The notes under the pieces were generated by a model. It worked only from the letters and a program-made list of their open reading frames with translations, was not told the DNA's origin and made no database searches. A stretch of 64,000 nt of DNA from Candidatus Omnitrophota bacterium (GTDB lineage: Bacteria > Omnitrophota > Gorgyraeia > Tantalellales > Tantalellaceae): assembly GCA_035403965.1 (NCBI GenBank), contig DAONGE010000003.1:17860-81859 (forward strand), read 5' to 3'. How positions within the stretch are numbered: the first letter of the stretch is position 1; the number at the start of each line of letters is the position of its first letter. This document shows positions 6,412 through 52,100 of this stretch, one piece after another. The position numbers and the translations under genes were made by a program.

Positions 6412-7581
6412 ATGAAAAATCCGACGATCGTATTTATATTTATTCTGTGCCTGATTTTGAAGAACACAAGTGCCTTTTCTGATGAACAGGCTGCCTATCA
6501 GTATAATCAAAAAGGTATAGAATGCATGCAAGCCGGCAGATTTGAGGAGGCTATTGAGGCCCTTAAAACGGCGCACCGATATCTTCCGTCGAATGAAACC
6601 GTAAAGAGGAATCTTTGTATCGCCTATAATAATTATGGCTTTTCTCTGATGAAAAAAGGGGACTATTCGTCCGCTATTGAACAATATGAAAATGCCATTT
6701 ATTATGGGGTCGATATCGCTTATACCTATTATAATCTCGGACAGGCGTATTATATGACACAGGATATGTCGAAGGCCAGAGACGCTTTGGAAAAGGCTTA
6801 CAGCTTGAATCCTAAAATAAACGGTTTAAATGAGTTGTTACGCAAGGCCCGAGGCGAGGAAAAAGTCGAGAATCGTCTTGAAACCGTAGAAACAATGCAT
6901 TTTGTCCTAGCTTGTCCGCCGGATACTGATAGAGACGCTATATCGTTTGTTCAGACGCAGATAGAGGAGGCATATGGAAAGATAGCGATGTTCCTTGATC
7001 ATGCGCCGCGAAATAAAACCGTTGTGATCATTTATCCTGAAGAAGCGTACGCGAGATTATTGGGAGGAAGACCTTCCTGGGGGTTGGCTACGTTTGATGG
7101 CAAGGTCAGGATACCCGCCAGGCGCATTAAATATTCCGGAGAAGATGTCCTAAAGATGATATATCATGAATACGCGCACGCGGTAATTTTAGATATGGCT
7201 CGAGGAAGATGCCCTAATTGGTTCAGTGAAGGTGTGGCCAGTAAAGCGGAAGATTTTGGCGCGGCCAAAGACAGGGATGTGATACGTAAGTATATAGAAA
7301 GATACGGTATCATTCCGATCGATGGGTTTCCGGCGGATTTTTCCAGGGTTCGGGATATGAACCGGGCCGTTTTGATGTACATCGAAGCTTATCTGGTAGT
7401 TGATTTTCTTCAGCGGACTTCAGGGAACTCGGGAGTTCGCGATGTCTTGATAAAAGTCGGGCAGGGTATGGGGCTTAAACAGGCGATAGAGTCGGTGACG
7501 GGTGATAGTTTCGCCGGTTTTGAGCAAAAATGGAAGGCCTATGTTATAGACGAATATCGGATCAGTATGGACGGCAGATGA
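6412..7581 (+). CDS. Exported TPR-repeat protein with C-terminal HExxH zinc-peptidase-like domain
   Basis: Signal peptide 'MKNPTIVFIFILCLILKNTSAFS'. Several TPR-like repeats follow (AY.N.G...G.YEEAI). 'MIYHEYAHAVILDM' is an HExxH motif. Confidence 0.6.
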   Translation: MKNPTIVFIFILCLILKNTSAFSDEQAAYQYNQKGIECMQAGRFEEAIEALKTAHRYLPSNETVKRNLCIAYNNYGFSLMKKGDYSSAIEQYENAIYYGVDIAYTYYNLGQAYYMTQDMSKARDALEKAYSLNPKINGLNELLRKARGEEKVENRLETVETMHFVLACPPDTDRDAISFVQTQIEEAYGKIAMFLDHAPRNKTVVIIYPEEAYARLLGGRPSWGLATFDGKVRIPARRIKYSGEDVLKMIYHEYAHAVILDMARGRCPNWFSEGVASKAEDFGAAKDRDVIRKYIERYGIIPIDGFPADFSRVRDMNRAVLMYIEAYLVVDFLQRTSGNSGVRDVLIKVGQGMGLKQAIESVTGDSFAGFEQKWKAYVIDEYRISMDGR

Positions 7582-34115: not shown

Positions 34116-37100
34116 ATGAGAGTAGATATGGGAAGATTAAGCAGGATGATAGACAGCGGGAAGGTGAAAACACTGTTCAAAAAGACGGTGTCTTCTATTG
34201 TGGCGTTTACTTTTCTTGCTACTAGTTTCTATTACGATAATGCCCAGGCTTCAAATATCAGTATGCCAGTCGTAGCGGTCGACAGTAACCCGGTAAATTC
34301 TTCAACAAATAATATACAGAGAATCCTTGATCCCAAAACATTTACTTTGCCGGAGAACTTGGGAAAGGTTGTCGATTCATGGGCAGTGAAAGATGCCCTT
34401 AAGAACGGCGACGCGAAACTTGTTATCTACATTCAGGACGCGCATTGTAACTACGGCGCGCAGAATTCCATTTCCGAGATCATCGATCTGCTCAATAAAG
34501 AATATTCCGTGAACATGGTCAATCTTGAAGGAGGAACAGGCGATTATGATCTTTCGGTTTTTACGGATATCAAGGATAAGGCGATCCGCGCCAAGGTAGC
34601 GGATTATTTTGAGAAAGAGGGGATACTGAGCGGCGCGGAATCGTTCGCCGCAAATAATCCCGAAAAGGTATCGCTCTGGGGGCTGGAAAACACCGAACTT
34701 TATATCAAAAATCTAAATGTCTATCGCGATTCGCTTACATATAAAAACGAGGCTGAAGGCTATATAAAAGCGATAAGTCGCGATCTTTCTGCGCTGAAAA
34801 CGAAGATTTACTCGCCGGAATTGCTGTCTCTGGATATGAAATACACGGCGTATAAAGCGGGGAATGCGGATCTAAAGACATATCTTCTTGGGTTAACTGA
34901 GACGGCTAAGAATGAGGGTATAAACCTTAAGTCCTATCCGAATATTTTCTTTATGATCCAGACTCTGGCTCTTGAGAACACTATCAATTTCAAAAGGGCC
35001 GAGACCGAACGAAGTATCCTGGTGGATGAATTGAGCAAAAAACTGCCGAAAAGCAGGATGGAAGACCTCGCCGCTAAAACTATTGAGTTCAGGTCAGGAA
35101 AAGTGTCGCAAAGGTATTTTTATGCGTATCTGCTGGACGAAGCGAAGATGATAAATCTTGAGATCGACACCTTCGGCGAACTCAAGAAATATATGCTTTA
35201 TATCGAGATCTTCGATGCCGTGGATAAGTCGAGAATCATGGATGAGATGGAAGGACTTGAGAACGCGGTGCGTGCAAGTATCTACACGAACGATGATGAA
35301 CGCTCTCTTAATACGCTTTCAAAGAACCTTATCCTTCTTAAGAATATGTTCAATATCTCGTTCACCCGGAGCGATCACAAATATTACAAGGACAACGCCA
35401 AGGGTTTCGCCGCGGAAGGGTTCATCTCGTTCATAAAAACGGAATCCCCGAAGTACGGGATAACCCCGTCGGCGGACGAAAAAGCCCTCGCGCTCGATAA
35501 ATTCCGCGAAGAGATATCCTGTTTTTATGAATATTCGTTCGCGAGGGACGAGGTGTTCATAAAAAACATAAAGATGAACGCTACTCCCTCCGCTAATGCT
35601 AAATGCGCGGTTATGGTAAGCGGCGGTTTCCATTCCGAGAACATGTATGAACTTTTCCGGAAGAACAATATATCGTACATATCGATAATGCCTAATTTTA
35701 AGAATTGCGACGGGTATGAATGCCCGTATTTCGATCTCTTGGGCGGTAAATACGGTAAGGTGCTGAACGCCCTTTCCGGTAGTGCGACATCGAATTTGGC
35801 GTTGTTTAGTTTCTTCTGTAAAGATGCATCGACGGTGGTCAACGGGGAGATGACGGAGGCTGGGGTTAAGACATGGTCGGTTCTTGTAAGGGCTATGTTT
35901 GAGTCCGATCTTTCAAAGGGACCGGTCGAGGTCAAAGGTGAAGGGGATAATGTTGGATACGTTATCGGTGGAGAGCCTGACCCTAATAACGAAAGCATTA
36001 CTCTCGATATGGACGGGAGACGAGTTCTGGTTCAGCGCGTAAAAACAGCCGAAAATATTTTATCTGCAACCGTCGCTGGAGATGTGGGAGCGAATGCTAA
36101 AAATGTTGGTATGAAGTCTGTCGCAACCCCGGATGATACGGAATTTTTATCATATTCTAAAATGACGCCAGAGGAATTGGATCGTGTCGAATCGGATCTT
36201 GTACAGAAAGTGCGTGGGTTATGTATGCGTCATGCCGGGCTGGCAGCTAGCGCATCCGATATTGACAATATTGCGGATATCTGTCGTAGCGTTTTATGGC
36301 TTGATGTTTATTTGACAGACAGGAAAGAGGTCGAGCGGGAGTTTTTAGAATCGTTTGATCTCATTACCCAGATATTTCATGGGAATCAGATATTAGAGCT
36401 TTTGGTGTCAGTGCTTCGTTTTGCCGATGAAGCGGAAAGAGGCAACGAGGATGCGGTGGAATTTGTGAAGAGTGTGGCAAAATTACAAGCGATCAACGAT
36501 GTTCCCAGTCAGGATGGCCGTTCGCAGACATTGCCATATTGTAAAAGTCGGAAGCCATATCTGGACATGGCGAGCGGACCGAATATTATATATTTCACAG
36601 CAGATATAAAGCAAAATGCCCAGGTTGAACACTATCTGGTGGATACTTCCTTGTTCGCGAATACATATCTCAAAATGGTCATGGCATTGAGAAATATTCA
36701 TAACGTAGAAGTGAAACAAGAAGATGTGCTGAATTTAAATTTCAAAGAGGGGAGTTTGGGCGCAGTTCGTCTGAAAAATTTATATACATATGTGCGAGAA
36801 CAGGTTTTAAAACAAATTGTCCAAAAATATGGCGAGGTGGATCTTGACTTCCACCTAAAAGAATATTGGGATGAATATTGGGATCGGGTGGCGGCTTGGC
36901 TTGAACCGGCGGCTATGGTCGATGGACATGTCCAAATCCGTGGACAGATATTTGTGCAGTCCGATTTGTCGGTGGGGCACCGGGCTAACATGGCTGAGAT
37001 CGTGCATGATATGTACGATGTGCTGGTTTCCCAAAAAGGCTGGGCGTTTGATTTTAAACTGGGGATTGATAAAGGTGGTTTTAGATATGATGTGCTTGAT

Positions 37101-40100
37101 ACAGTAATATTCACAAAACCGCCGGTTGGAGGCAGATTGGATTCTCCGCATACGTTTGAGGATTTCTTAGCGGCGATAGAAAGTGATAACGTACATTTTG
37201 AGACGGATTCGGATGAGATCCAGTCTTTCTTGGCGAATTCTTTCGGTAATATTTTTGGTAAAAAGTACGCATGGCTCGATAACGGATTAAGGATGTTATT
37301 GTTGGCCGCGACGCCGGTACATGAATTAGGCCATATTCTTGCGGCAAAATTATCCGGGCTAAGTGCGAAATGGACATTTAAAAATCTTTTTACCGGCAGT
37401 GTCGAGATAGGAAGGGCTCCGCCGAAGGTTCTCTTTGCGGGTTTGGTATCAAATCTTGTTGGTGCAGTGCTTTCCGCATCGATTTTCGCCGCGTTAAAAA
37501 TATGTTCAGACCAGCCGATTCTGTCCGTAACCGGTATTATTCTTTGCTATACCGCGGTTACAAACTTCGCGTCGTTTTTAGCGGAACTTATAGCTCTTCC
37601 GTTCGGGAAGGGGGATTTGGCCCGGGCAACAAAAAGCCCGAATGTTGAAAATATTTCGGTGCAATCTTTGACAAAATCTTATGTGGACGAGCATGGCGAA
37701 CAGCTTGCTCATGAAAGAGCGCAAAGAATGAAGGGAATGATGGGGATATACGCCGCTATGGCGATATCCGCCATCGGGGCTGTGATAACATCCTTATTGG
37801 CCTATTTTGGTTTAGATATCGTTTCACCCGCGCAATTCGCGTCTTTGATGGTGCTTTCTTTTACCGCGGTGCCGGCGGGAATGAATGTGCTTTCTCATGC
37901 CGCGTACAACCTGCTGACTTTGTCGCTCCGATCAAAAGGGGCCATGCGCGCGCTCGGAGAACAAGGTGATACGAAGCCGCTTGTTGAGTCTGTGGCCGCG
38001 CGGTATGCCATGAAACATATGGGTTCATACGAATCTACGATCGATGAGGTCGATATTTTAAAATTGCGGCATAACGAAATTTGGAACATACCCGACATAG
38101 ATATCGATGCTAAGACAGGATTACCGCGTAGTTTTGAAAGTGATGTTTGGAAGTTGGCTAAAAAGATCCCGGGTATTAAGTATGCCAAGGTTGTAAGGGC
38201 GGACCTCGGCGGTATCCCGAGCTATCATTTTGTCAGAGGGCAGACCCTGATAATAGTTCTTGATTCGGGGATAGACAGCGATCTTGTGAACGAAGCTGTG
38301 TACCATGAATTAAGAGAAACCTTCTGGCTTACACAAAAAGATCTTATGTATGAATTGTCACAAACGTCTGGTTTCCCGCCGGAACGCATAGCCCATATAA
38401 TCGCTTCCGCTGAACAGGTCACGAGGTTCGGGAAGGATGGGAATCTGACCCCATATCACGCCCGTGAGATCGCGCGTATGGATAGAAAGGCGCTTTCGGG
38501 GCTTATTGATGAAAGAACCACGGGCGGAAGGGAAAACCATATTTTTATACTTGATGAAGTGGCTAAACGTTATCCGGATGTAAAAATAGATCTTAATTAT
38601 GAGGATCTGGTAATAAGGCAAGCTGAAGCCGAATTAGGACTTGGTGAGCCGATTTTCAGGATCAAGGCCGAGAACGCGGAAGTGGCGACGGACGAGATAG
38701 ATCTGGCAGGGTTAGTGGCTTATCTGCATACCAGGGATGGGGAAAATGTGAATACCGTAGCCGGTAGCATAAAAGCCAACGATTTAGCGTCCAAAGTCAA
38801 CGGGATGTCGGGGCCCCAGTACGATAACTTTATGTCCAAGATCAGAAAAGTGAGGGAACATCAGTTCAGCGGTGCGAATCGGCCTATAGTCGAGATTATC
38901 GCTAACGCGATAGATTCTTATGTTGAAGATGACAGAAGAGCATCTGGGAGTGTCGCGGTAAATGTGGATGATAGAGGTTTTGAGGTGATCGATCAGGGTA
39001 AAGGGATGAGTCTTGACCAGGTGCTTTTGTATCTGCTCATCCCCTCATGGTCTTCCAAAAGGGGTGAAGGGGAGCTTGATATCGGTCGTTTTGGCGTGGG
39101 ATTTTATTCCGTGCTTAATTATTTGAAACATGAAGGAGATAAACTGGTCGTTGAGACTTCGAACGGCCAAGAAGGCACGAGAATAGTGTTTTATATCGCA
39201 GAGGGAGACGGTAAACAGCTGGTAAAAGTACGTTTTGAAAGCATCCCTACCACGCCGAAAGGCACGGCGGTCAGATTGATCCTTCCCGGGAAGAATTTTA
39301 GATCCATGGAACATTCCAACGTGATTGAACAATATCTAAGGTTTAATGGTAACGCACCTATATATGTCAACGGCAAACCTATCAATGCCGGGATAATGGG
39401 TGAACACGAAGGGTATAAAGTCGTTGATGTCGGCAAGAACGATCTGAGCTATTCTGAAAAAAGAGCGTCAAAAGGGAAGGCGTATATCCTGGTCAATGGC
39501 GTGACTATATTTGACGTGGATCTTGTGTGCAGTAATTCCCCGGAGACGATATTGATAAATTTCCCCAAAGACGCCAAACTCACAAAAAGCAGGGATCGCG
39601 TTATCTGCGGGGCTAATGAACGTGAATTTATTAAAGAGATGTTGTCCGTGCTTTCCAAGGATGCGAAGAACATTGATATTTTAAATGCGCTATATCCTGT
39701 GATAAGGGAACTTCAGCGCAACAACAATGATCGCGGGGATAACCTTGAACATTTTTATATAAATACAATAAAAGGCCTTGTTACATCATCGCATATTAGG
39801 GTTCTGCCGGATGTGCCATACATGGGGCAGGTAAGGTTGCAAGAGCGATATGTATTGATCCGACCGGAGTTGTTTAGACAACTCAAGAATTATAGGCCAA
39901 TTTTGCAGGAGTTCAACGGACATTCGGGTGGTTATCAGGTGTTTGTAGCGGAGTTTATGTCGGATGACATTGTTTTTGTGCACGATAATATGGTTGTCAT
40001 CCTTAACAGTAAGTATATCCCACACAACGTTGAAGAAGTGGCTGCTTTGGAGATGTTAATGGGTTTTGATGACGTCAATATCCAGTTTACGGGCGCAGAT

Positions 40101-43100
40101 GTTAAAGGCGGATCTAATTCTAAGATAATTGGTGAGAATATTGGTTCTGAAAAAAACACGTCGATGCTTAATAATATGAAAAAATGGGCGGGGAATTTTC
40201 CGGGTATAGTTAGTTTCCCTCTTGTGATATTAATGAAAGTAGTCGAGGGAATAGGTTTATTCATATCAAAGATACCTTACCTCGATGTTTTTATGCCGAG
40301 GACGGCCAATATAGGGCCGTACAAAGGGCGAGATTACACTTTCTTCCGTCACATGCTTAGCAGTGTGGAAAGCCGAATCCTTCCTAATGATGATATGTCA
40401 AAAGACCCTGCATATGTTAAAGCCTTAGAGGAGCGTATTAAGAAAGATGTTTTGGGTAAGGGGAAAAAGCGGGTAGATCTGTGGAAAGATTTCCTTAAAC
40501 GTTATAATATTGAGAGTTTCGATTTTGCCAAAACAGTCGAGAACATATTGGACTTAACAAGGAAAAGATCCGAGAGTATGCGGGAAGGGAAGTCCCGTGT
40601 GGGAGAGTCAGGGGAGCATCAATTGGGCTCTGAAGAATATAAGGGTATGGATAAGTTGATGGATGATCCTGTTTTTATGGCGGATGTTGTAGCGTTAGAA
40701 TTTATTAATAAGATCAGCATGAATCTGTTGGCATTCTTTTCCAGTGACAAAGAAATGAGAAATTGTTTTGACCAGATGGTCAAAGGCCTGAGGGCGGTTG
40801 GTATGGGTTACGGAGAATGTCTGGCTCTATTTGAAGGCATTGTAAAAAATTCAAGTAGGAACCAGCGAATGAATAGCCACGACGTGTTGGTCAGGATGAA
40901 GGGGATTGTGAGCTGTATCGATCGGTTGAAAAATGTGAATTTTGCCGACGGCGAAGAGATGGAAACCTTCCTTTCAAAACTTGCAACTCGAAGATGGTTG
41001 GCCCGTATAACTTATCCTAAATTCGACCGCAATAGCCATACATACTTGGTTTTTGATGCCAAAAATTCTTCACCCATGACATGGGATCTGAGTAATTTCT
41101 ATAGCGGGAATGATCTCGATGACATTGATTCGCCGTCTGGATCATATCGCGAATCTTTGGTTAGAGGGATCTTACTGTTGACGGAGATCCTCGCCGGAGA
41201 TAAGTTTGATCAGCGTTATAAGGATAAGTATTTTGACATTCTTGGTAAGAAGTTTCTGTCGGCAGAACGCGGAGAAATCGCCCCTGGAGAGTTGGCCCAA
41301 TTTGTCATGTATTTCTCAGGTATTGTATCCGTGGAGGAAAATAAGGATGAGCGTTTTCTGGATGTTTTAGAAAAAGAACTTACAAAATTGATCCGTTTAT
41401 GTAAAAACACGATTGATAGTGATGGTAGAAGTCAGTATCCTCGCGTATCTGATATCGCTGTCAAAGGGCATTCGCTGGATATAGTAAGCACTTTCACGGA
41501 CGCCGGTGACGCGAAGTATCTATTTGATTATCTGCAGGTGTTCTCTGATACTGTAAGGTTTAAGGATGTCGATGTGTCACTACGACTGAGCCTGTGGAAG
41601 ACGATAATGGCGAGGCATATTGGTAGATCTGAAGGCTTTCAAGAATGGTCTTATACCTATAGCAGTACCGACAAGGAAGGAGAAATAAGAATTTGGAAAA
41701 CTGCGCAAGACGAGTACGAGTACATTGTGAACGTATTATGCAAATTAACGGATCATGGCGTCACATCGTCAAAAGACGTACATCGTATCGCCAGGCCATA
41801 TGTGTTTTGTCTCGATTCAGGTACGGACATCCTGAAAAAAGATGTCAGCCCTGATTCCGCCAGGATCGGAGGAGAGCTGAACACACCTTATTCATTAAAG
41901 TTATCAACGCTGGTGGCTTTATATCTCGGCGGCGCGATGAAAGATAAAAACGCCATGGAAAAAGATAAAACCGCCATGGAACTTTTGGACATGGCCCGTT
42001 CCGGGGCCGATACCGCCGGTTTGATCACGGAGGTCAGCCGCGAAACGGCCAAAAATTCGATAATAGAAAGTATAAACTATGAAAGTTCTGACGAATATAT
42101 TTTTATACGCGAGATAATACAGAACGTGCTTGACGCTAAGGGCAAGGAGCTCGACGTGTCCGCTATCAACGGACGCGATTGGTGCCAACTGGGCTTTACG
42201 GATAATGTCGGGATGAGCATTGAACGCGTAGTTAAATTTTTGCTTATTCCGGACAGTACGACGAAATTAGAGGATAAAGAGGCCAGGGGCAAATTTGGAC
42301 AGGGATTTTTTACCGTTCTTAAAGATGCGCGGATGGTGCGTGTTAAAACATCCGATGGCACGGGAAAGCTTGTTATTGTCCAGATGACGCCGGTGCGTAA
42401 AGGCGAGTTGATCGTGGATGTGGATATTTCCGTGGAGATCAAGGACGACGCTTCCTTTAAAGGAACAAACATAGAATGGTTGAGAGATTCCGATATCCCT
42501 CAGCTCGAGACGGCTATAGTGAGATCAAAATTGTTGACATATGGTTGTTTGATCGATGATGCGGAACTTAAGATAAACTGGACAGTGAATAACACGACGG
42601 CGGTGATCAATAAAAACAAGGAGCTGATGGGCCAAATTGAAACCGAATATGGGAAAGTGGGGCTTTATCATTCAGGGGACAAAGAGAACGTTGTGACGCA
42701 TAGGGGGTTGTATGTAAGGGAGATCGACAAATATTTTTGGGATACCATACCGGTGCATATAAGGGAACAATTGTCCGACTATGGGATTATAATAGACCTT
42801 CCGGCCGGGGTTGAACTTATAAGCGACAGGTCAGATGTGACCAATAAAGAAGAAATATTGTCAAAATTACAACCTCATTTGGCCAAACTCAGTATTATCG
42901 CCATTCTTGATCTTTTCGCCAGCAATAAAGTCAAGCTTGGTTTTATGCCATATGATTTTATGAAGGATGGCAGGAACTGGATCATCCCCAATAGTGTGAA
43001 AGATGACGCGGCCGCCCTGAAAAATGGGCAACAGATAAATGTAGCCCCATATGTGGCCAGCGGCACGCTTTTTGGACAGCTTATAGCATCGATCCCATTT

Positions 43101-46100
43101 ATATCGCTTAAAGGGAAAGATGAGCATTTCTCTCTTGTGTATGTTTTAGAAGGTATAGAGAACGGTTCGATATTCTTGGATGACATAGTGAACGAGAATA
43201 TCGTCGAATGTATAACCACTGTAATGAAAAGAAAAGCACAGTCACGCCGGCAGGCCGAAGAAAGGAGAGAAAAAGGATATAAAGAATTCTATGATATTAC
43301 GCTTCCAATCGAAGGAAGACGTGACGATGCGGATGTATATTGGGCTTTTTCAGAGTTTATGAAAGAAGTATCAGTGATGTTAATCGCTGGTCAAAGAGAG
43401 AATTTGGGATCGGCCGAGGTTATGTTCTATGGATCTGTAGGGAATGATAAGGCACATGCTTTCCAGAACAGTTCCGCGATGGGGTGGAATATCTATTCCA
43501 ATATGGAGTTATTTGATCAATTCTCAAAATATCTGCGTGATGAGATACCTCCGGACCAGGCGATATACACGATAAGAGATATGTTCAGTACGCAGCTTCA
43601 TGAGCTTGCCCATATGCTAGAAAATACCGGGGAGACCACTCATAATGATGAATTCTTTGCCAGGCAAAAAGCCCTGACAAAGTCTTTTCTCATGAGTATA
43701 GGGGAGATCAGTAAAATAGCCGAGAAGATCAAACATGAATATAAAGGTACGGTTATAGATGTAAAATCATTCGCCAATTATTTGTTGGAATATAGAGACA
43801 AGGGTGTTTCACCTGTTACGTTGCGTGATTTCCCCGCAAAGGATATACGATCGCCTAAACAGATGTCTGTGCTAACATTGACAAAGACCTACGCGCAAGA
43901 TCATGCCGAAGAGTTGCTAAAGCTCCACCATCTGATCGAAGGGCAAAAGTGGACAACAGATCAGTTGCTTGCCGATATGTGGAAGCAGGGAGAATATGGA
44001 TCGTCGAAGGATAGACCTTTTGCCGGTAAATGGGAGCATAGCTTTGTAGCCACATCCGCCGATGGCAAACCCATTGGAGTCCTGATCGCGTACGAAAGAC
44101 CTGCTAATGAAATGCAGGGTGTGGATGGCGCGGCCTTGTATGTTCATGCGATAGCCGTGGACCCGATGTATCAAGGTAGCGGTGTCGGAAAGCGCCTCAT
44201 GCTCGAGTTGGCGGAGCAATTGAAATTAAGGGGGCTACAGTATCTTACTGCCTCACGCGGAGAAACGCGTATAGCGCTTCAAACAGGCGATGATAATCTC
44301 GCTGCGCAGAAATTCTATTTTAACTTGGGTTTTGAAGAAGTAGGGAGAAAGTATTATCCCGCGTCCGGAGATGGTGAGGCACATTCGGATCTTGTCCTTA
44401 GCGCTTCTTGCGAAGATGTTATAAAAAATATCATAGGGGCCCCGGCGTCGGTCGCTGTAAACAATATGGATGCATTTAAGCTGACCCATCCATGGAAAGA
44501 TTTTCCTGATCAAAACGGTCGGTATATCGCGGATATGATAGCGGATCATTTGAGCGATAGGGTATATATCGCGCGGCAAATACAGGCTTTGTTCCCAGGC
44601 GTAGCTATAAGGCCGGCCGATCTTGTAAGTGTATCTGTCGAGCCCGGCAGCCACCGGTCGGGTTCGTATAAAGATTACAACATCGTGAATGTAACGGCAG
44701 GTGATAAACAATACCGGTTCGGTATTCTGGCGGGTGTTCTATTTAAGAACGAATATTCTGAGAAAAAACTATTTGCGGATAATGGTATAGGTCCGCGTGT
44801 GGGGGATATGGGTGACAATGAGATCTTCAAACGGTTGAATAAACTTGAAGTCGGGATGGTGGCGGTGCAGCATGTGGAAGGCGAGACTGTAAGTGAACTG
44901 ATAGATAGGGGTGATTGGAAAGAAGCATCAGATATTTATGCGGAAATATTGCGTAAATTCAACACGATCGGATTCTTTGGATTGGATATTTTTAATAACG
45001 GCGATAACGTTATTAAGGGAAATGACGGGAACCTTTATATCATAGATCACTGTGTGTCTGAGGATAAAACCGACAATTTGAAATATCCGTTACATGTCTT
45101 ATTTGCGCTGATGTTGCAAGCTAATTCGCGAGGTGAGACGGAAGTGCTCGATACATTAGACCATGAAAAGATCGACGAGATCGTACAGATGTGGTACCGG
45201 GATTTTTATATGGATAAACCGGACTCTGAGATAGAAGATGAAATTGATAAGATTTTATTAGCAGCGGGAGATTTTTCTTATTTAGCCCAAAACCCCAGAG
45301 ATGTTATAAAAACCGGAATACTGGGATATTTAGCCGAAAGTCTTAAAAAGACAGCTTTCACTGATACTAAAGGCTATGAAGCAGGGTTCGCTCCGTTGAA
45401 AGATGCACGTTTTATTGCCGGATCTTTGGCTATGGGCGTGGTTTTTGCGGCTACTAGTCTTTTATCCGGCAGTTTAGGGGTGGGTATAGCCTTTGGGATT
45501 GCCGCGGCGGCGATAAGCGTATCTTCGATCAGTTATTTTACGCGTTCTGAATCCGGAGTAAGATCTTCTGGCAATGAGGGGATGTCCAGACGCGAATGGC
45601 TTACGGCCGCGGGGATCGGCATTATTAGTTTGTCGCCAGTAATAGCCGAAACGGTAAATTCGTTCATTAAACAAAATAACGCAGGTATGGAGATGCCGGA
45701 CATTGTTATGTCAGACGAACAGATAAGGGATCTTGTCGCGACCCTGAAAGGCATGGGATTTGAGATCGATGCGGAAATGGTGCGGAGTTCTATTAGAAAT
45801 TCCAACAAAGAAAAAAATAAAACAATGGTAAAAGAGATCTATGAAGGCATGCGCGCGGATGCAAATATTCCATGGAATAGGGACGATGTTTATCCGGTGC
45901 TTTTTGTCGACGGTTTAAAAGAAGAAGGGTTCGCTATGGCTATTACAGACATACCGTTGATAATAGTCCCGGCGGAAAACATTCCTAAAGACAAAAAACA
46001 AAGAGAAGCCTGGCTTGGAGAAAAGATCGCGCATGAAGGGACGCATATAGCTAATCGAGAGCTGGTCGAACTTGGCGCCATGACTCGATTGGAAGACGAA

Positions 46101-49100
46101 GCGGCGGCGTATAGAGTGACAGCCGCGGCGGTTGAAAAATATGAGCCATTGAATAAGGAAGGGATAATTACGCAGCGCATGGTAAGCAGCGCGTTCGATG
46201 TGATCATCAGCCCCTCAGGTCAGGCTAAACTGAAAGAACTGGTGAATATCCCGTTCGATCGTATGTATTACGATAATATTAAGATCCTCGGGAATTATGT
46301 GGGGATACGTATTTATCAAGATGCGCCGGAAGGGTCTAAAGTAAAAAAGGTCGTATGGGTTGATGTTTCAGAAGGAGAAATAAAAGGTATCGATCTTGAT
46401 CTGAAGATGGAATTATCCTCGGCCGGGAAGGGGCTTACTTCTGTAGTGCTCGCCGCTTCTCTGCTTCCCGGATCAAACCGGGAACAGGCGGATAGGATCA
46501 GCCTTAATGTGTATAAGCTCATTTTGAAACGGGGACTGGAAAAACACGTTGGGGCGTTAAGGCGTGAAGGAGTCATAGATAAAGGTTTGTTGGATGTATT
46601 TGAGCGGGCGTTGAACGATATGTTCGACAAAGACCTTAAGGATAAAGATGTGGTCACATGGCATGATTATACGCATGCGGCGAATATGGCGCTACGGGCC
46701 ATGGAAGCAATGGAAAACGTGCTTAAAGAAAATCCGGGGATGTCCGCTAACGCGCTTTTGTTAACGGCCATAGCCGCGATGTACCATGACGTGGGATATT
46801 ATTCGGCTGATCCGTTCTCGGGCGCCAGAAAGTTTGGGCATGAGGACAGAAGTATGGCATATGTCAGGGATCATGAGAGAGATCTTGGGATCTTATCGCG
46901 TGACGCGGCGCGGATCAATCTGATGATATCGGCTACAAAAGTGGAAATGGGCAGCGTTTTTAGGGATCTTGATCCTTTGGTGAATAAGATCTCAAGTGGA
47001 AAAGCCTCCGCTGATGAGATAGCTCGGGTAAAGACATTATTGGGGCAGAACGGTTTTTCTGTTGATACATTGGGATTGGACCTCTCGGATCACAGGGACG
47101 TTGAATATTTGTTGGCGCTAATTTATGGCGGCGAAATACTGGCAACCCTTGACGTATATGATACAAGGCCGGACGTCGCCGAAAGGATAGATGATCTCCA
47201 TAACGAATTTAATTTTGATCGTGACACCATTAATCAGAAATTGGCGGATGAAAAAGATAGTAACGTTAGAGCAAAATTGGAGATGTTGGTCAGTACTCTT
47301 GAAATGTCAAAAGATCATCTCGACGCGATAGGGAAAACACGTGAATTTTATAAAAAATATGCCGACGATAGGGTCGCCGGTTTTGGCGTATGGGGAAAGT
47401 ATATAAAGGGTGAGATAATCGATGATTTTGACGCCAAACGAGCCGGTATATATGCGATAGGTGAGGCCGCGGCTAATCCTGATCTTGCTAGTTCAGCGCA
47501 ATATGCCGATAGACATTTATCAAGAGCCGATCTGGAATTTATATCACGATTTTCCGTGATGGTCGAGCTGGAACGTAAAGGGATGCCGAATTTTGGATCT
47601 TTGAGAGATATTATCCCGCGCGCACCGCCGATATTGTCTCTGGAAACGATTATTGACGTGTTTAACGGGATTTGGAACGCGTATATTTATGCGAATGTGC
47701 CCAGTGATGAACTTGCCGCGGTGGGACGTTTTAAAGCAGATACGATACGGCATTCCATCCTTACGGCGGAACTTATCGGATTGGTTATCCGGCGAATGGA
47801 AAAAGACGGTCAGGTCTTTAGTGATCAAGACGTACGGGATATCATGATAGCCGCTATATTCCATGATATCGGCAAATATATTACGGCGCGTGAAATGGCA
47901 TCCAACAGGATCTTTGCGAAAGAAGAACGTCCCGCTATTGTTCATAAACATGTGGATATCTTGCATGGGAACCCTGATAAAGGGGATTATAAAAAGTTTC
48001 GGGATGTGTTGGCTTCTTATGGTATATCCATAAGGGGCAGCAGCATAACTGCTATTCAGGGCATGATGGGCGAGCATTATGTCACAGCTATGCCAGGCCA
48101 GAATGAGCGTCATCGTACCGTGGAAATGGGATATCTCTTGTATATGTGCGACGATCTTTTAGGCAGGTTTGACGGCGCCAGGGAGCATAAAAAACCGTTA
48201 GAGGGTTTTTCCTCGGTAGTGAATATGGCATATGACCGTGTCCAGAAAGTGAAAACCGATGCTGAACTATCCCGGGATAAATTCTATATCGCCTGCACTA
48301 ACGCGCTTTCTGAAATAATGCCTGCCGATATGATGGAAGCGGACGACGTCGATAAAAAAACATTCACTGGACTTCTTTATGAAAATGCGTTCCTGTCTTT
48401 TAGGCCATTGGTGACGTCCTCAAGCTGGGCGGGCATAGCTAACGATAAAGTGGCGCAGGCTAGGGTAAAGCAAGGTTTAGAGAGAAAAATAATCACGATG
48501 TACGCAGAGCATGATCCAAGTACGAGCAAAAGTATAATTGGATATAAAGGGGAAAAATACCTTTTAGAAGTTATCAGAGAAGTGCTGGAATTAGATGTAT
48601 TTGCCCCGGATAGAAACTATGTGGTTAGTGGGTTAAACGAGGAATTCAGGATACCCGGGATACGGGCAAAGGATATAGCGCGATCGATATTCGCCTTGGC
48701 TGATGGATCAGATGCGGCCGCCAAGGAATTTGTCAGGGCGGTGGCCGAATTAGCGGCGTTAAATGAGATAGATTTCGTGAAAGAATTTAAACAGAAGCTG
48801 CCGAAAGACGATAGTGATAAACCTTATTTGGATCTTGCTTCAGGGCCTAATATAGCATATTTTTCGAATGATCTGGGGGCTTCGCGAAAATATTATTTTG
48901 TCGATAGATCTTATTATGTGAGCACATTCCTTGAACGGATGATGGAACTGACTGGACATAATAATGTCGAGATCATGCAGAAGGACATATTAGATCTTGA
49001 TTTCGGTGATGAAAGCTTAGGTACGGTCAGGGTTAAGAATCTGCTTTTGTACGCTAAAGTTCCCGACACGTATTGGGATAAAGCCGCGAAATGGATAACT

Positions 49101-52100
49101 CCCGGCGGGCAATTGACCGTTCAGGCCGATCCAACATTTAAAGGAAGAAAAGATTGTGCGGAGATGGTACGGGTGTTGTATGAAAAACTTGTTGTTAAAG
49201 ACGGGTGGTCGTTTAATGTTATTTTAGGCGTGGAAGCGCAGCAACCATTTGATTCCACTTTAGATACGGTTACTTTTGTTAAACCGAAGTCCGGACAGAG
49301 GTTAACTTCAAATAAAAATTTGGATGAATATCTCGCTTCTACAGGGCAGAAAATAGCCGTTAAAAAAGTAGAAGAACCGGCTAAGCCGATAACTCCCGCA
49401 TCACGGGAAGAAGCGTATTGGCACGGATCGATGGTTTCTTTTGATAAGTTCGATGAAAACCGGATAGGTTTTGGTACCGGGGCCAATCAGGAGGGGTGGG
49501 GTTTTTCAGTAACCCCAGGCAAAGAAAACGCGAAGGAATATGCCTCCGGTGCCGCGGGTAAATTACAGCCGGGGCAGAAACCCATATCCATTAAAATTAA
49601 AATAAATGGCCAGGAAGTGAATAGTTTTGCGGGGCATGAGAAATATTACGCGAAAAGGCTTTTTAATATTATCAGTGCAGGCGGAACGGTGGAAGACGCG
49701 CGGGAAGCATTGCTGTCGGAGGTCCGTGAAGCCGGAGATGCGGAAATGGAAAAGTTTATTGCGAATGCGGATATCACCGTAAATATAGAAAGATATTTAT
49801 ACAGGATCGATGTCGGCGAAGATCCTGTTTGGCTGGAGCTGAATGGAAAGCCTGATAAGTCCGTATGGACTATGATACAGGCGCAGGCTTCAAAAGAAGG
49901 GGTATCTTTCGGGAAGTATTTTAATATCGTTGATGGCGAGCCGCAAGTTAACATGGGCAGGGAAATATATGCCGCGCTTATCAATATCCTTGGTTCGGAT
50001 AAAGAGGCGTCTTTGTTTCTGGATAGATCCGGTATCACCGGGAACAAGTCCGGACATTTTTATACGGTTTTTCCGTCAAGGATCAAGATGCGGGAACGAA
50101 TAGATATGAACGAAAATATCAAAAAGGGTGGAGCTATAGTCCCCGAGGCGGAAGCTGGAAAAGGTGCTGAAAAGAGGATGACGAAAGAAGAACTGCGTGA
50201 AAGGGTTAACAGGATACAAGAAGAAATATCTACGGTAGGATCGTTCCCGTCTGTTAAGGAGGCGATAAAACGTGTTTCGGAGATCATCCGGTCGGTACAC
50301 GCAAAAGACGCGAAAAGGCCGGTCATTGTCGTTCTTGACGGGCCGCATATCGGCAAATCTACCACGGCGGACGCTATTATGGGTAAAAATACGGTGTTAG
50401 GCGAGAATTTCGCGGCTGAGACAAATATGGATTCACGTGAAATTTATTTTATCAGGGGAGACTATTTCCATGAATTTTATGCGAGTAGCAATACGCAGGG
50501 ATACGATTATCTGAATAGACTGGATGAACTGCCGGAGAAAGAAAAGAACCGTTATCTGCATCTTCAAAATTTGAAAACTGACAAAGCGGATGCACAAAAG
50601 GGTAAAATAGTGCTGAAAAACGCGATGAAAGATTATGGCTCGTATTTACAATATTTTGTTAATACGTATCTTTCAAAAATATTGGCAGAGTCCGGAAAAC
50701 GTGTGGTTCTTTGGGACGAAGCCGGAGGTGAGGGGTATTTCACAGGTGGCGCTATTTCGCAAGGGGACGTGGATAATCCGGTTGCGATGATATTTGTTAC
50801 ACTTCAGCAGCCTTTGGGGAGCGGCTCGGTAGGAGCGACTGTAAAAACATGGGATTGGGGCGATGTCAAACCGATCTCCGCGGCCCCAGCGGCGGAGGCG
50901 GGGAAAGGGACCATACCCGCAAAAACCGAAATAATTACTGCCCTAATATCAAAACGGACAGGCAGTATAGTGGACATAATGGCAGGTGTAAAAGAAGATG
51001 TTTTGGATAAGTATTCCGGAATACATCATGTGCCAGTCTCTGAATTGGACACGATAGAAATAAACGTTCCGGATGGTGTGTATCATGGCGTGCATGCGTC
51101 TTCGATTATAAGCGCCCATGCGACGGACAAATATACAAAAGGAAAAGAGGGATTAAAAGTTCTGGTCATCGGAACAGGGATGGGACTTGAAGCTTATATC
51201 GCGGCAAAGAACGGCGCGACCGTGACAGCGGTCGATATTAACAAAGACGCCGTGAAATGCACCAGAGATCTTTGCGATAGGTTGGGTGTGGGAGAAAGAG
51301 TCACCTGCATGGTCAGTGATCTTTTCAGCGCGCTTGGGAATAATACGTATGATCTTATTGTGTTCAATATGCCACATCCGAAACTGGGGGATGATAATCG
51401 TATCACGAAAGATGGGGATATAAATGTTGTTGATGTGGGTGAAAGACTTTTAAATGTCACTGCGTCCGAGGTGGACAAATATTTGAACTCGCAAGGGATA
51501 GCCGTACTTGTTGATTCAGAGCAGACACGAATAGAGAAAATATTCGCTCAAAATCCGAATGTGAACGTTACACACGATTTTTTTGATGTTGAAGGGCCGT
51601 CAGTGGCATATATACTTACGAAGAAAGATATGGCCCCTGCGCCGGGGATTGGTGGATATTCGGTGGATGGAAGAGAAATGTTGTGGAATGTTGATAACGC
51701 CATGCATGTGCCGTGGAAAGAAACCGTGCGAGATGTTGTCCAAGAGCCCGAGTCAAAAACAAAAACCCTGAATCAGAAAAATTATCTTAATAATCAGCTC
51801 GAGGTGAGGAAGATGTTTCTTGATCTCTTAGGGCGCATGAAATCTGCGGAAAAAATTGATTTTGCCGCGGAACTAAAGAAATTGCACGATGTACTATTAT
51901 TGGGCAGAAACGGGGATTCGCCATATATTCCAGAGCTTCAAACCGATGATGATATGGTTATTGCAGACGAAACCGGAAATGTTCAAAAAAAGAGAATATC
52001 GAAATTGCAGGAATATGGTACGGAGTATACCGATTGGGGCAGGGGAAGAGCAAGTACTGATGGGCCAATACACAACGCGTTGCGGGAATTTCTGAATTTG

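What the first reader, a model, noticed from the sequence alone, without database searches (positions are those of the whole stretch)
38850..42500. Two sacsin/Hsp90-like GHKL ATPase modules, about 3.2 kb apart, inside the giant ORF
Both modules carry the complete N-box, G1 and G2 triad: 'IANAIDS / DQGKGM / GRFGVGFYS' and 'IIQNVLDA / TDNVGMS / GKFGQGFFT'. The G2 box is nearly identical to Hsp90/sacsin 'GxFGVGFYS'. Sacsin-repeat-type ATPases are essentially eukaryotic or rare in bacteria. A tandem pair embedded in a bacterial giant protein is unusual and hints at a chaperone-like or nucleic-acid-handling function.
Basis: partly seen in the sequence, partly recalled or inferred. Interest (0 to 1): 0.65.

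Follow-up and report, generated by a model that had tools for sequence, protein, structure and literature searches.

The report
Paired Hsp90-like ATPases in giant protein
The two ATP-binding motif sets are real: they are two related but distinct Hsp90-type ATPase modules that always travel together, followed by a probable zinc protease, as a conserved unnamed cassette built into a 6,993-residue multi-enzyme protein of an Omnitrophota bacterium.

Summary
Both motif triads lie where stated, 3,216 nt apart, in one ORF (34116-55097, 6,993 aa).

Both modules are Bergerat-fold (GHKL) ATPases of the Hsp90 type. Each keeps the catalytic Glu, the Mg-binding Asn, the adenine-binding Asp, the G2 and G3 boxes, and an Arg that aligns with the Hsp90 middle-domain catalytic Arg. 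For both AlphaFold models, the 50 best PDB matches listed are all Hsp90-family chains.

The pair is not an oddity of this gene.
- Module 1 is an "A-type" and module 2 a "B-type" paralogue.
- They belong to a conserved cassette: A, a helical linker, B, then an invariant HExxH(x9)H..F zincin-like motif.
- An exhaustive search found 290 cluster representatives at E<=1e-30.
- These include 1.5-2 kaa proteins from Omnitrophota, Patescibacteria, Elusimicrobiota, Auribacterota and Legionellales.
- In three loci the two occur as adjacent A and B genes; a related standalone A-type protein is named from a Nanoarchaeota MAG.
- The A-B spacing has a median of 1,080 aa; here it is 1,073.

Module 2 lacks the first Gly of G1, and such ATPases are not rare in prokaryotes. 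Neither module reaches the curated cut-offs of the sacsin or HtpG models.

The likely function is inferred, not shown: an ATP-driven A/B clamp coupled to a peptidase.

The parts
34116..55097 (+). Giant ORF, 6,993 aa. It is a multi-enzyme, membrane-anchored protein of a Candidatus Omnitrophota bacterium.
   Evidence: ORF list and translation. The same gene was called as 6,983 aa on JGI contig Ga0116247_10000408. Neighbouring proteins are identical to NCBI 'Candidatus Omnitrophota bacterium' MAG proteins HPS19615-HPS19644. Hydrophobic segments are listed.
38697..40088 (+). Module 1, the A-type Hsp90-like ATPase module (aa 1528-1991): Bergerat N-domain plus a middle-domain-like part.
   Evidence: BLASTP and phmmer to A-type parts of relatives, e.g. 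P0124 E 1e-86. Pfam HATPase_c and HATPase_c_3 are above the gathering scores. AF2 model m33112d60bada: the 50 best PDB matches listed are all Hsp90 family, best E 2.4e-12.
38889..39266 (+). Module 1 ATP-binding motifs: N-box VEIIANAIDS (E1593, N1597, D1600), G1 DQGKGM, G2 GRFGVGFYS, G3 KGT (T1717).
   Evidence: Positions. These columns are near-invariant in 69 A-type relatives and invariant in the alignment with 21 HtpG sequences.
39561..39596 (+). Module 1 loop FPKDAKLTKSRD with R1826, which aligns with the Hsp90 'DLPLNxSR' catalytic-loop Arg.
   Evidence: The Pro and Arg columns are invariant across 30 sequences including HtpGs. Arg is present in 68 of 69 A-type relatives.
40089..41783 (+). 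Linker between the modules (aa 1992-2556). It is mostly helical or unassigned and contains one hydrophobic segment at aa 2031-2049.
   Evidence: No Pfam hit. Hydropathy. The equivalent linker gives an A-B spacing of 559-1,358 aa in 42 relatives.
41784..43790 (+). Module 2, the B-type module (aa 2557-3225): N-terminal helices, Bergerat domain, middle-domain-like part, helical region and a zincin-like end.
   Evidence: Aligns end to end with the C-terminal ~600 aa of 44 cluster representatives. AF2 model mfaa684dde109 has mean pLDDT 81.6, from an alignment without any HtpG. The 50 best PDB matches listed are all Hsp90 family, best E 8.7e-12.
42108..42467 (+). Module 2 ATP-binding motifs: N-box REIIQNVLDA (E2666, N2670, D2673), reduced G1 TDNVGMS (D2696, G2699), G2 GKFGQGFFT, G3 KGT (T2784).
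   Evidence: Conservation in 63 B-type relatives: E 57, N 58, D 61, G2 Gly residues 57-61, T 58. The G1 form is D-x-(V/I/L)-G-M throughout.
42798..42836 (+). Module 2 loop LPAGVELISDRSD with R2905, the counterpart of the Hsp90 catalytic-loop Arg.
   Evidence: P307 and R316 of the module are invariant in the 30-sequence alignment with HtpGs. Arg is present in 60 of 63 B-type relatives.
43599..43658 (+). HELAHMLENTGETTHNDEFF: an HExxH(x9)H..F motif, a putative zinc-binding site of a zincin-like (SprT/WLM-like) peptidase at the end of the B module.
   Evidence: H, E, H, H and F are invariant in 45 of 45 relatives that reach this region. Weak Pfam WLM hit, 16 bits, below the cut-off of 26. The model shows helix, three strands, the HExxH helix and a further helix, the zincin core as described in PMC5512222.

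Best explanation
Shown:
- The two motif sets belong to two paralogous, non-identical Hsp90-type GHKL ATPase modules.
- Each has a Bergerat ATP-binding domain with a short lid, followed by a middle-domain-like part that carries the Hsp90-type catalytic Arg.
- Module 1 is the 'A' type and module 2 the 'B' type of a conserved cassette: A, a linker that puts B a median 1,080 aa after A, B, then a terminal HExxH(x9)H..F zincin-like domain.
- This cassette exists on its own as 1.5-2 kaa proteins in several lineages, and as two adjacent genes in three loci.
- Here it is embedded in an Omnitrophota multi-enzyme giant protein, next to GNAT, HD and several methyltransferase modules.

Inferred mechanism:
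- As in other GHKL machines, ATP binding probably drives N-domain dimerisation.
- Because A and B are always co-inherited in cis or as neighbours, they probably close on each other as an intramolecular (or obligate) heterodimeric clamp. Each would hydrolyse ATP with its own Glu and Arg.
- The clamp would hold or remodel a polypeptide client and present it to the attached zincin.
- The client could be the giant protein's own segments or neighbouring enzyme modules. The cassette would then be a built-in chaperone and processing unit.

My confidence in the identity and the cassette is about 0.9. My confidence in the clamp-plus-peptidase mechanism is about 0.35.
For: Identity:
- Pfam and NCBIfam hits.
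- The B-type profile hits PDB Hsp90 N-domains at E 5.5e-14, and the best 60 shown are all Hsp90 family.
- For both models, the 50 best Foldseek PDB matches listed are all Hsp90, TRAP1, GRP94 or HtpG. The module 2 model has pLDDT 81.6 and no HtpG in its alignment.
- The catalytic-loop Arg aligns with Hsp90 'NxSR' in both modules.

Both modules look active: Glu, Asn, Asp, G2, G3 and Arg are conserved in 69 A-type and 63 B-type sequences.

Conserved pair:
- In each long relative, module 1 scores high only on the N-terminal stretch and module 2 only on the C-terminal stretch. For P0124 the scores are 297 vs 13 bits and 378 bits.
- The spacing is 559-1,358 aa, median 1,080, against 1,073 here.
- A and B are adjacent genes in L004/L005, L006 and L007.
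- 290 representatives reach E<=1e-30.
- Named members come from Omnitrophota, Patescibacteria, Legionellales, Elusimicrobiota, Auribacterota and Nanoarchaeota.

Zincin: the invariant HExxH..H..F motif and a zincin-like topology.

Host protein: Omnitrophota origin, and a domain content matching the published 'Module 1' of Omnitrophota long proteins.
Against: - No experiment or complex prediction shows that A and B contact each other.
- Foldseek TM-scores are only 0.3-0.4, so domain arrangement differs. I could not search single domains.
- The module 1 model is of modest quality (pLDDT 63.7), and its alignment contained HtpG sequences.
- There is no Hsp90 C-terminal dimerisation domain and no PF00183 hit.
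- Two loci, L004 and L006, have B proteins (1,277 and 1,224 aa) without HExxH, so the peptidase is not obligatory for the pair.
- The zincin assignment rests on a motif, a sub-threshold WLM hit and predicted topology. There is no PDB sequence match.
- The B-type G1 lacks a Gly that normally contacts the phosphates, so B could be a slower or regulatory site.
Confidence: 0.55

Rival explanations
1. The two modules act independently. Each homodimerises with the same module of a second copy of the giant protein, as Hsp90, MutL and MORC homodimers do. They would then serve mainly to oligomerise or organise the membrane-anchored giant protein.
For: GHKL ATPases with solved structures are mostly homodimers (established knowledge). 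Both modules keep full catalytic sets. Many standalone ~550-aa A-type proteins exist.
Against: A and B are clearly different paralogues that are co-inherited. They are fused at a conserved spacing in at least 42 representatives, and lie directly adjacent in all three loci with separate genes that I could inspect. That pattern is what is expected of obligate partners.
Confidence: 0.2
2. The cassette handles nucleic acid rather than protein. It would be a MORC/MutL/rIIA-like ATP-driven clamp on DNA, combined with a SprT/WLM-like protease of the kind that removes DNA-protein cross-links.
For: The only Pfam family touching the HExxH region is WLM, weakly. The giant protein also carries methyltransferase, HD and ART-like modules that could act on nucleic acids. 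Foldseek against viral models finds phage RIIA and topoisomerase GHKL proteins.
Against: No DNA-binding domain was detected. NCBIfam MutL models do not hit the window's modules at E<=0.1. All 50 listed PDB fold hits of each model and the best 60 PDB profile hits are Hsp90 family. The conserved second-domain residue is the Hsp90-type Arg, not the MutL/GyrB/MORC Lys.
Confidence: 0.12
3. The modules are histidine-kinase-type ATPase domains of a signalling or regulatory architecture, as the Pfam name HATPase_c and the published grouping of Omnitrophota long-protein domains suggest.
For: Pfam HATPase_c (PF02518) is the hit reported in surveys. The 2026 preprint places it in a 'signal-transduction / regulatory' module.
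Against: No HisKA/DHp or receiver domain sits next to either module. The G2 box is GxFGxGF, and the Arg loop is of the Hsp90 type. The sequence and fold neighbours listed are all Hsp90.
Confidence: 0.03
4. One or both modules are degenerate pseudo-ATPases kept only as structural scaffolds.
For: Module 2 alone is below the Pfam cut-off, and its G1 box is reduced.
Against: The catalytic Glu, Mg-binding Asn, adenine-binding Asp, G2, G3 and Arg are conserved in about 90-100% of 63 B-type and 69 A-type sequences, including both modules here.
Confidence: 0.08

Closest known systems
Hsp90 family (HtpG, Hsp90, TRAP1, GRP94)
   Same: Both have a Bergerat ATP-binding domain with ExxxNxxD, DxGxG, GxFGxGF and GT boxes. 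Both have a following domain whose loop Arg aligns with the Hsp90 catalytic Arg ('NxSR'). Hsp90 gives the best PDB sequence and fold matches for both modules.
   Different: The ATP lid is about 9-13 residues shorter. There is no Hsp90 C-terminal dimerisation domain and no PF00183 hit. NCBIfam HtpG scores 24.8 bits against a cut-off of 371. Two different paralogues sit in one chain. A zincin-like domain is attached. The B type has DxxGM in place of DxGxGM.
Sacsin repeat region (SRR) and the prokaryotic 'sacsin N-terminal ATP-binding-like' domain (NCBIfam NF047352; Pfam SACS PF25794)
   Same: Sacsin also has several Hsp90-like ATPase modules repeated about a kilo-residue apart in one giant polypeptide (three Hsp90-like modules; PMC3710099). 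NF047352 is the best NCBIfam model for both modules (E 9e-9 and 1.7e-5). The N-box to G2 region is short.
   Different: Scores of 35.7 and 25.2 bits are below the cut-off of 50. Pfam SACS does not hit the window's modules, and hits only 3 of 11 B-type relatives weakly (best E 2.3e-4). Sacsin repeats are copies of one unit joined to DnaJ and HEPN domains. Here there are two distinct paralogues joined to a zincin.
Multi-enzyme giant and long proteins of Omnitrophota (West-Roberts et al. 2023, bioRxiv 10.1101/2023.11.21.568195; bioRxiv 10.64898/2026.06.07.730766)
   Same: Same phylum, membrane anchoring, and the same co-occurring domain set: methyltransferase, HATPase_c, GNAT and HD. HATPase_c is listed among the top-20 domains.
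   Different: Those surveys list HATPase_c only as a Pfam hit, grouped under 'signal-transduction / regulatory'. In the passages I read, the Hsp90-type nature, the A/B pairing and the attached zincin are not described. This protein (6,993 aa) is below their 10-kaa threshold.
Polyvalent proteins of phages and conjugative elements (Iyer et al. 2017, PMC5512222)
   Same: Many unrelated enzyme domains are strung in one polypeptide, with embedded zincin-like metallopeptidases proposed to process it. There is a weak ART-PolyVal hit at aa 5102-5217.
   Different: The context here is chromosomal, beside glutamine synthetase, GOGAT, CarAB and PyrG, with no phage or conjugation genes in the window. GHKL and Hsp90 domains are not mentioned in that paper. 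ART-PolyVal is below its cut-off (21 vs 31.2 bits).
Tiamat defence protein TmtA (PADLOC) and phage RIIA / giant-virus 'histidine kinase-like ATPase' proteins
   Same: Weak local matches of the N-box to G2 region to TmtA models (23 and 15 bits). The GHKL part shows fold similarity to RIIA and to Orpheovirus A0A2I2L6C7 (E 3e-13).
   Different: Only the ATP-binding core matches. There is no defence-island context here, and the remaining architecture is unrelated.

Membership tests
GHKL (Bergerat-fold) ATPase superfamily | N-box with catalytic Glu and Mg-binding Asn (ExxxNxxD) | tested here: met
   E1593/N1597/D1600 and E2666/N2670/D2673. These columns are invariant in alignments with relatives and HtpGs.
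GHKL (Bergerat-fold) ATPase superfamily | G1 box DxGxG, with the adenine-binding Asp | tested here: inconclusive
   Module 1 has DQGKGM, which is canonical. Module 2 has D-N-V-G-M: the Asp and second Gly are kept, but the first Gly is absent and the box is one residue shorter. This holds across the whole B type.
GHKL (Bergerat-fold) ATPase superfamily | G2 box GxxGxG and G3 'GT' | tested here: met
   GRFGVGF and GKFGQGF, with KGT in both. Conserved in 57-69 of the 63-69 relatives.
GHKL (Bergerat-fold) ATPase superfamily | Alpha/beta sandwich fold | tested here: met
   AF2 models have pLDDT 80-94 over the ATP-binding domains. Foldseek probability is 1.00 to Hsp90 N-domains.
Hsp90 family | Middle domain with a catalytic-loop Arg contacting the ATP site | tested here: met
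   R1826 and R2905 fall in the column of the HtpG 'NxSR' Arg, which is invariant in 30 sequences. Fold alignments extend over the N and M domains of TRAP1 and GRP94. Contact with ATP itself was not examined.
Hsp90 family | Full-length family signature (Pfam HSP90 PF00183; NCBIfam HtpG cut-off), including the C-terminal dimerisation domain | tested here: not met
   No PF00183 hit. HtpG PRK05218 scores 24.8 bits against a cut-off of 371, and PRK14083 scores 26.5 against 455.
Hsp90 family | Long ATP lid between G1 and G2 | tested here: not met
   About 24 residues here against about 33 in HtpG sequences of the same alignment.
Sacsin SRR / sacsin-like ATP-binding domain | Score at or above the curated cut-off of NCBIfam NF047352 or Pfam SACS PF25794 | tested here: not met
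   NF047352 scores 35.7 bits (module 1) and 25.2 bits (module 2) against a cut-off of 50. PF25794 gives no hit in the window's modules at E<=10. It hits 3 of 11 B-type relatives weakly.
MutL / MORC / GyrB-type GHKL | S5-fold transducer domain with conserved Lys; family profile match | tested here: not met
   No MutL NCBIfam hit for the window's modules at E<=0.1. None appears among the 50 listed PDB fold hits of either model. The conserved residue is Arg in an Hsp90-like loop.
Sensor histidine kinase | HisKA/DHp dimerisation domain directly upstream of the HATPase_c domain | tested here: not met
   No HisKA or related Pfam hit anywhere in the ORF at E<=0.05.
A-linker-B-zincin cassette (unnamed family defined here) | A-type module N-terminal and B-type module C-terminal in one chain, at about 0.6-1.4 kaa spacing | tested here: met
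   Module 1 and module 2 match the A and B parts of relatives reciprocally. The spacing is 1,073 aa against a family median of 1,080.
A-linker-B-zincin cassette (unnamed family defined here) | Terminal HExxH(x9)H..F motif after the B module | tested here: met
   HELAHMLENTGETTHNDEFF at aa 3162-3181. The motif is invariant in 45 of 45 relatives that reach the region.
SprT/WLM-type zincin peptidase | Family profile match and zincin fold with three metal ligands | tested here: inconclusive
   Pfam WLM scores 16 bits against a cut-off of 26. There is no PDB sequence match. The predicted topology of helix, three strands, HExxH helix and a further helix is compatible. Metal binding is not testable here.
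Omnitrophota multi-enzyme long proteins | Omnitrophota origin; many unrelated enzyme domains (MTase, HATPase_c, GNAT, HD) in one membrane-anchored chain | tested here: met
   Neighbouring proteins are identical to Candidatus Omnitrophota MAG proteins. Domains. Hydrophobic segments. Published domain set. The length of 6,993 aa is below that study's 10-kaa limit.
Polyvalent proteins of mobile elements | Encoded on a phage, prophage or conjugative element | tested here: not met
   The upstream genes are GS III, NadE, GltB/D, CarA/B and PyrG. Downstream are a hydrolase and a GGDEF response regulator. No phage or conjugation genes are present.

The most novel reading that the evidence does not exclude
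The A-linker-B-zincin cassette may be a so-far undescribed type of ATP-driven machine. It would be an intramolecular heterodimeric Hsp90-type clamp coupled to a metallopeptidase. The named members so far come from lineages, several of them known as host-dependent, episymbiotic or predatory: Omnitrophota, Patescibacteria, Nanoarchaeota (DPANN) and Legionellales, plus Elusimicrobiota and Auribacterota. It could serve as the built-in folding and processing engine of giant multi-enzyme proteins, or as an effector acting on host or prey proteins.
Probability: 0.2. Interest if true: 0.75.

Novelty: new variant of a known kind. Interest (0 to 1): 0.5.

Why it matters
Giant multi-enzyme proteins of Omnitrophota are a recognised puzzle. 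How chains of thousands to over 100,000 residues are folded, kept soluble and possibly processed is unknown.

This analysis shows that the 'HATPase_c' hit in this protein is not a signalling domain. It is one half of a conserved pair of Hsp90-type ATPases with an attached putative peptidase. That gives a concrete, testable candidate for an in-built chaperone and processing unit. Surveys report HATPase_c hits in many Omnitrophota giant proteins (136 in one study), and the same reading may apply there, which I did not test.

The same cassette occurs as a stand-alone 1.5-2 kaa protein in several other lineages, where it is annotated only as 'ATP-binding protein'. That version is of tractable size for biochemistry. 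It would also be a natural example of a cis-heterodimeric GHKL enzyme.

Tried and rejected
- Word-index homologue searches badly under-reported the family. Module 1 gave 4 hits and module 2 gave none. Only the exhaustive profile search revealed the family.
- P0105, the third-best hit of that search at 5,263 aa, is the same protein truncated on another contig. It is not independent evidence.
- I tested whether the other genes of the L004/L006 operon (532, 279 and 705 aa) are fused into the giant protein or into the 1.5-2 kaa relatives. There is no significant similarity.
- The search for related loci on genome contigs with the B-type alignment failed because no stretch was conserved enough. Taxonomy therefore rests on about 10 named cluster members.
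- A single-sequence PDB search of the HExxH region gave only noise.
- I rejected the polyvalent (mobile-element) reading on context. I rejected the histidine-kinase and MutL/MORC readings on motifs and neighbours.
- Literature searches for prokaryotic sacsin-like GHKL proteins and for Tiamat TmtA found nothing describing this cassette.
- There are no tRNA or Rfam features in the window.

Full report
**1. Observation**

The window holds one very long ORF, 34116-55097 on the + strand, of 6,993 aa.
- IANAIDS / DQGKGM / GRFGVGFYS lie at aa 1595 / 1626 / 1657 (nt 38898-39110).
- IIQNVLDA / TDNVGMS / GKFGQGFFT lie at aa 2667 / 2695 / 2725 (nt 42114-42314).

The two sets are 3,216 nt apart. No competing ORF of 150 aa or more overlaps the region on other frames. 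G+C is even across the gene. The same gene is called on independent assemblies: a JGI 87.5-kb contig, ENA, and NCBI TPA. The ORF is therefore not an assembly artefact.

**2. Are they GHKL ATPases?**

Module 1 passes the Pfam gathering scores for HATPase_c (27.2 vs 26.4 bits) and HATPase_c_3 (25-40 vs 25).

Module 2 alone stays below the cut-off (HATPase_c_3 20.8 bits, E 4e-4). It is nevertheless homologous to module 1 (BLASTP E 2e-6).

Both carry ExxxNxxD with the catalytic Glu (E1593, E2666), the Mg-binding Asn, the adenine-binding Asp, GxFGxGF and a later 'KGT'. The one deviation is that module 2's G1 box is D-N-V-G-M, one residue shorter than DxGxGM and lacking the first Gly.

**3. Which kind of GHKL?**

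- The best NCBIfam model for both modules is NF047352, 'sacsin N-terminal ATP-binding-like' (E 9e-9 and 1.7e-5), followed for module 1 by HSP90-family and HtpG models. All are far below their curated cut-offs.
- PADLOC gives only weak local matches to Tiamat TmtA.
- In an alignment with 21 HtpG sequences, the family motif FPxxxxLxxxR (R1826; R2905 in module 2) falls exactly on the Hsp90 'DLPLNxSR' loop. The Pro and Arg columns are invariant in all 30 rows. This is the loop that carries the catalytic Arg of the Hsp90 middle domain (established knowledge: R380 in yeast Hsp82).
- The segment between G1 and G2, the ATP lid, is about 9-13 residues shorter than in HtpG.
- A profile built only from B-type relatives, with no Hsp90 sequence in it, hits PDB Hsp90-family N-domains at E 5.5e-14. 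The best 60 matches shown are all Hsp90, TRAP1, GRP94 or HtpG.
- AlphaFold models: module 1 has pLDDT 63.7, with 80-94 over the ATP domain, but its alignment contained HtpGs. Module 2 has pLDDT 81.6, from an alignment without HtpG.
- Against the PDB, the 50 matches listed for each model are exclusively Hsp90-family chains, including N+M fragments. Best E-values are 2.4e-12 and 8.7e-12.
- There is no HisKA domain, no MutL or MORC signal and no Hsp90 C-terminal domain.

The conclusion is that these are Hsp90-type ATPase modules (N-domain plus M-like domain) with a short lid. They are not members of the curated HtpG or sacsin families.

**4. The pair is a conserved cassette**

Word-index searches found only four relatives of module 1 and none of module 2. 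Their loci were nevertheless informative. In L004/L005, L006 and L007, a GHKL gene (637, 370+199 and 749 aa) is directly followed by a second, different GHKL gene (1,277, 1,224 and 665 aa). Module 1 groups with the first ('A') and module 2 with the second ('B'). The B grouping includes B-specific N-terminal helices and an insertion before the Arg loop.

The exhaustive profile search gave 5,116 proteins at E<=1e-3, which includes ordinary Hsp90s, and 290 cluster representatives at E<=1e-30. The latter comprise ~550-aa A-type proteins and many 1.5-2 kaa proteins (some up to 4.8 kaa) with two matched stretches.

In each long relative, module 1 scores high only on the N-terminal stretch and module 2 only on the C-terminal ~600 aa. 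For P0124 the scores are 297 vs 13 bits, and 378 bits.

The distance between the two catalytic Glu residues in 42 such proteins is 559-1,358 aa, with a median of 1,080. In the giant ORF it is 1,073. The '3.2 kb apart' is therefore a family constant, not a coincidence.

The key residues are conserved in both types (n=69 A, n=63 B): Glu 65 and 57, Asn 67 and 58, adenine-binding Asp 69 and 61, G2 glycines 57-69, Thr 68 and 58, Arg 68 and 60. The B-type G1 is D-x-(V/I/L)-G-M throughout. Both sites look catalytically competent.

**5. The end of the B module**

All 45 relatives that reach it share HExxH(x9)H..F. Here it is HELAHMLENTGETTHNDEFF at aa 3162-3181. Pfam WLM touches it weakly (16 bits against a cut-off of 26).

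The model shows a helix, three strands, the HExxH helix and a further helix. That is the zincin core as described in PMC5512222. A single-sequence PDB search found nothing.

I therefore call it a putative zincin-like peptidase. The L004 and L006 B proteins lack the motif.

**6. Host protein and organism**

Neighbouring proteins are identical to NCBI proteins of a 'Candidatus Omnitrophota bacterium' MAG (HPS19615-HPS19644). The context is chromosomal: GS III, NadE, GltB/D, CarA/B and PyrG lie upstream.

The giant ORF also contains the following:
- an N-terminal hydrophobic segment (seen in the translation);
- an HELGH motif with predicted hydrophobic (TM-like) segments at aa 1069-1229;
- a GNAT domain at aa 3299-3412;
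- an HD domain at aa 4544-4602;
- a duplicated methyltransferase-like block (aa 719-1020 and 4816-5075);
- two further methyltransferases;
- a weak ART-PolyVal match.

The closest relative of the cassette, P0124 (Omnitrophota, 2,590 aa), is collinear with the giant ORF at its N-terminal domain, A, B and its C-terminal domain. The giant looks like the same scaffold with extra enzyme blocks inserted.

Named family members come from Omnitrophota, Patescibacteria, Legionellales, Elusimicrobiota, Auribacterota and Nanoarchaeota. All are annotated 'ATP-binding protein', 'hypothetical', 'site-2 protease family' or 'Bud32'.

**7. What is already known**

Surveys of Omnitrophota giant proteins list HATPase_c among the commonest domains. 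They group PF02518 with methyltransferase, GNAT, HAD and HD domains as a 'signal-transduction / regulatory' module.

In the texts I could search and read, I found no description of the Hsp90-type nature, the A/B pairing or the attached zincin. Searches for prokaryotic sacsin-like proteins also found none. Sacsin itself is described as a giant protein with three Hsp90-like modules. That is a functional analogy, not membership.

**8. Mechanism (inferred)**

GHKL enzymes work as ATP-operated dimeric clamps (established knowledge for Hsp90, MutL, GyrB and MORC). Two distinct paralogues that are always fused or adjacent point to an obligate A-B partnership, here within one chain. Each half would contribute its own Glu and Arg. 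The attached zincin suggests coupling of clamp action to proteolysis, either of the giant protein itself or of client proteins.

None of this is shown. The rival readings are independent homodimers, a nucleic-acid clamp with an SprT-like protease, a signalling ATPase, and pseudo-enzymes. They are listed with the tests that would separate them.

**9. Verdict**

It is wrong on rarity and on the completeness of module 2's G1 box.

The added value is the recognition of a conserved, unnamed A-linker-B-zincin cassette. I rate it a new variant of a known kind, of moderate interest.

Noticed in passing
window 36270-37175 and 48561-49340 (aa 719-1020 and 4816-5075 of the giant ORF): An internal duplication of a ~260-300 aa block (35-37% identity, E 5e-44). 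The second copy weakly matches Methyltransf_11/25, so both are probably divergent SAM methyltransferase modules.
   Followed up: partly
window 35076-36110 and 54261-55094 (aa 321-665 and 6716-6993): The N-terminal and C-terminal domains of the giant ORF are shared, in the same order, with the 2,590-aa Omnitrophota protein P0124 (MBF0215357.1), which has only the A and B modules between them. The giant appears to be the same scaffold with enzyme blocks inserted at aa 665-1509 and aa 3225-6716.
   Followed up: partly
relatives P0218, P0221, P0225, P0230, P0234, P0237, P0243, P0246 (~2,000 aa; not in the window): In this subgroup the A-type domain seems to have a permuted motif order. The N-box is followed directly by G2 (IGRFGVGF) and G3, and the strand with G1 (DGGVGM) and the lid piece comes about 100-150 residues later. 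This may be a rearrangement within the Bergerat fold. I read the order in the P0218 sequence; the split matched stretches of the others suggest the same.
   Followed up: no
L004 1520-13786; L006 3542-13390: The two loci share an operon of three unannotated genes (532, 279 and 705 aa) followed by the A and B GHKL genes. These three partners have no detectable counterpart in the giant ORF or in the fused relatives. The L004 neighbours include Nre_N/Nre_C, which suggests an archaeon. In L006 the A gene is split into 370 and 199 aa.
   Followed up: partly
window 37320-37802 (aa 1069-1229): An HELGH motif is followed by at least two strongly hydrophobic segments. A relative with the same arrangement (P0156) is annotated 'site-2 protease family protein'. 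This may be an intramembrane metalloprotease module upstream of the A module. A third HExxH (HEGTH) lies at aa 3973.
   Followed up: no
window ~44450-45300 (aa ~3450-3730): The sequence after the GNAT domain contains kinase-like strings (GLDIFNNGDN..., NLYIIDHCV). The longer relative P0190 is named 'Bud32' by JGI. No Pfam hit at E<=0.05, so this remains an unverified impression of a protein-kinase-like module.
   Followed up: no
window 49419-49766 (aa 5102-5217): A weak match to Pfam ART-PolyVal, the ADP-ribosyltransferase of polyvalent proteins (21 bits, below the cut-off of 31.2). This hints at a toxin or effector-type domain in a chromosomal giant protein.
   Followed up: no
model of window 41883-43805 compared with BFVD: The module 2 model resembles giant-virus 'histidine kinase-like ATPase' proteins (Orpheovirus A0A2I2L6C7, 1,433 aa, E 3e-13) and many phage RIIA proteins. 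These viral GHKL proteins may be structurally nearer to this family than their names suggest.
   Followed up: no
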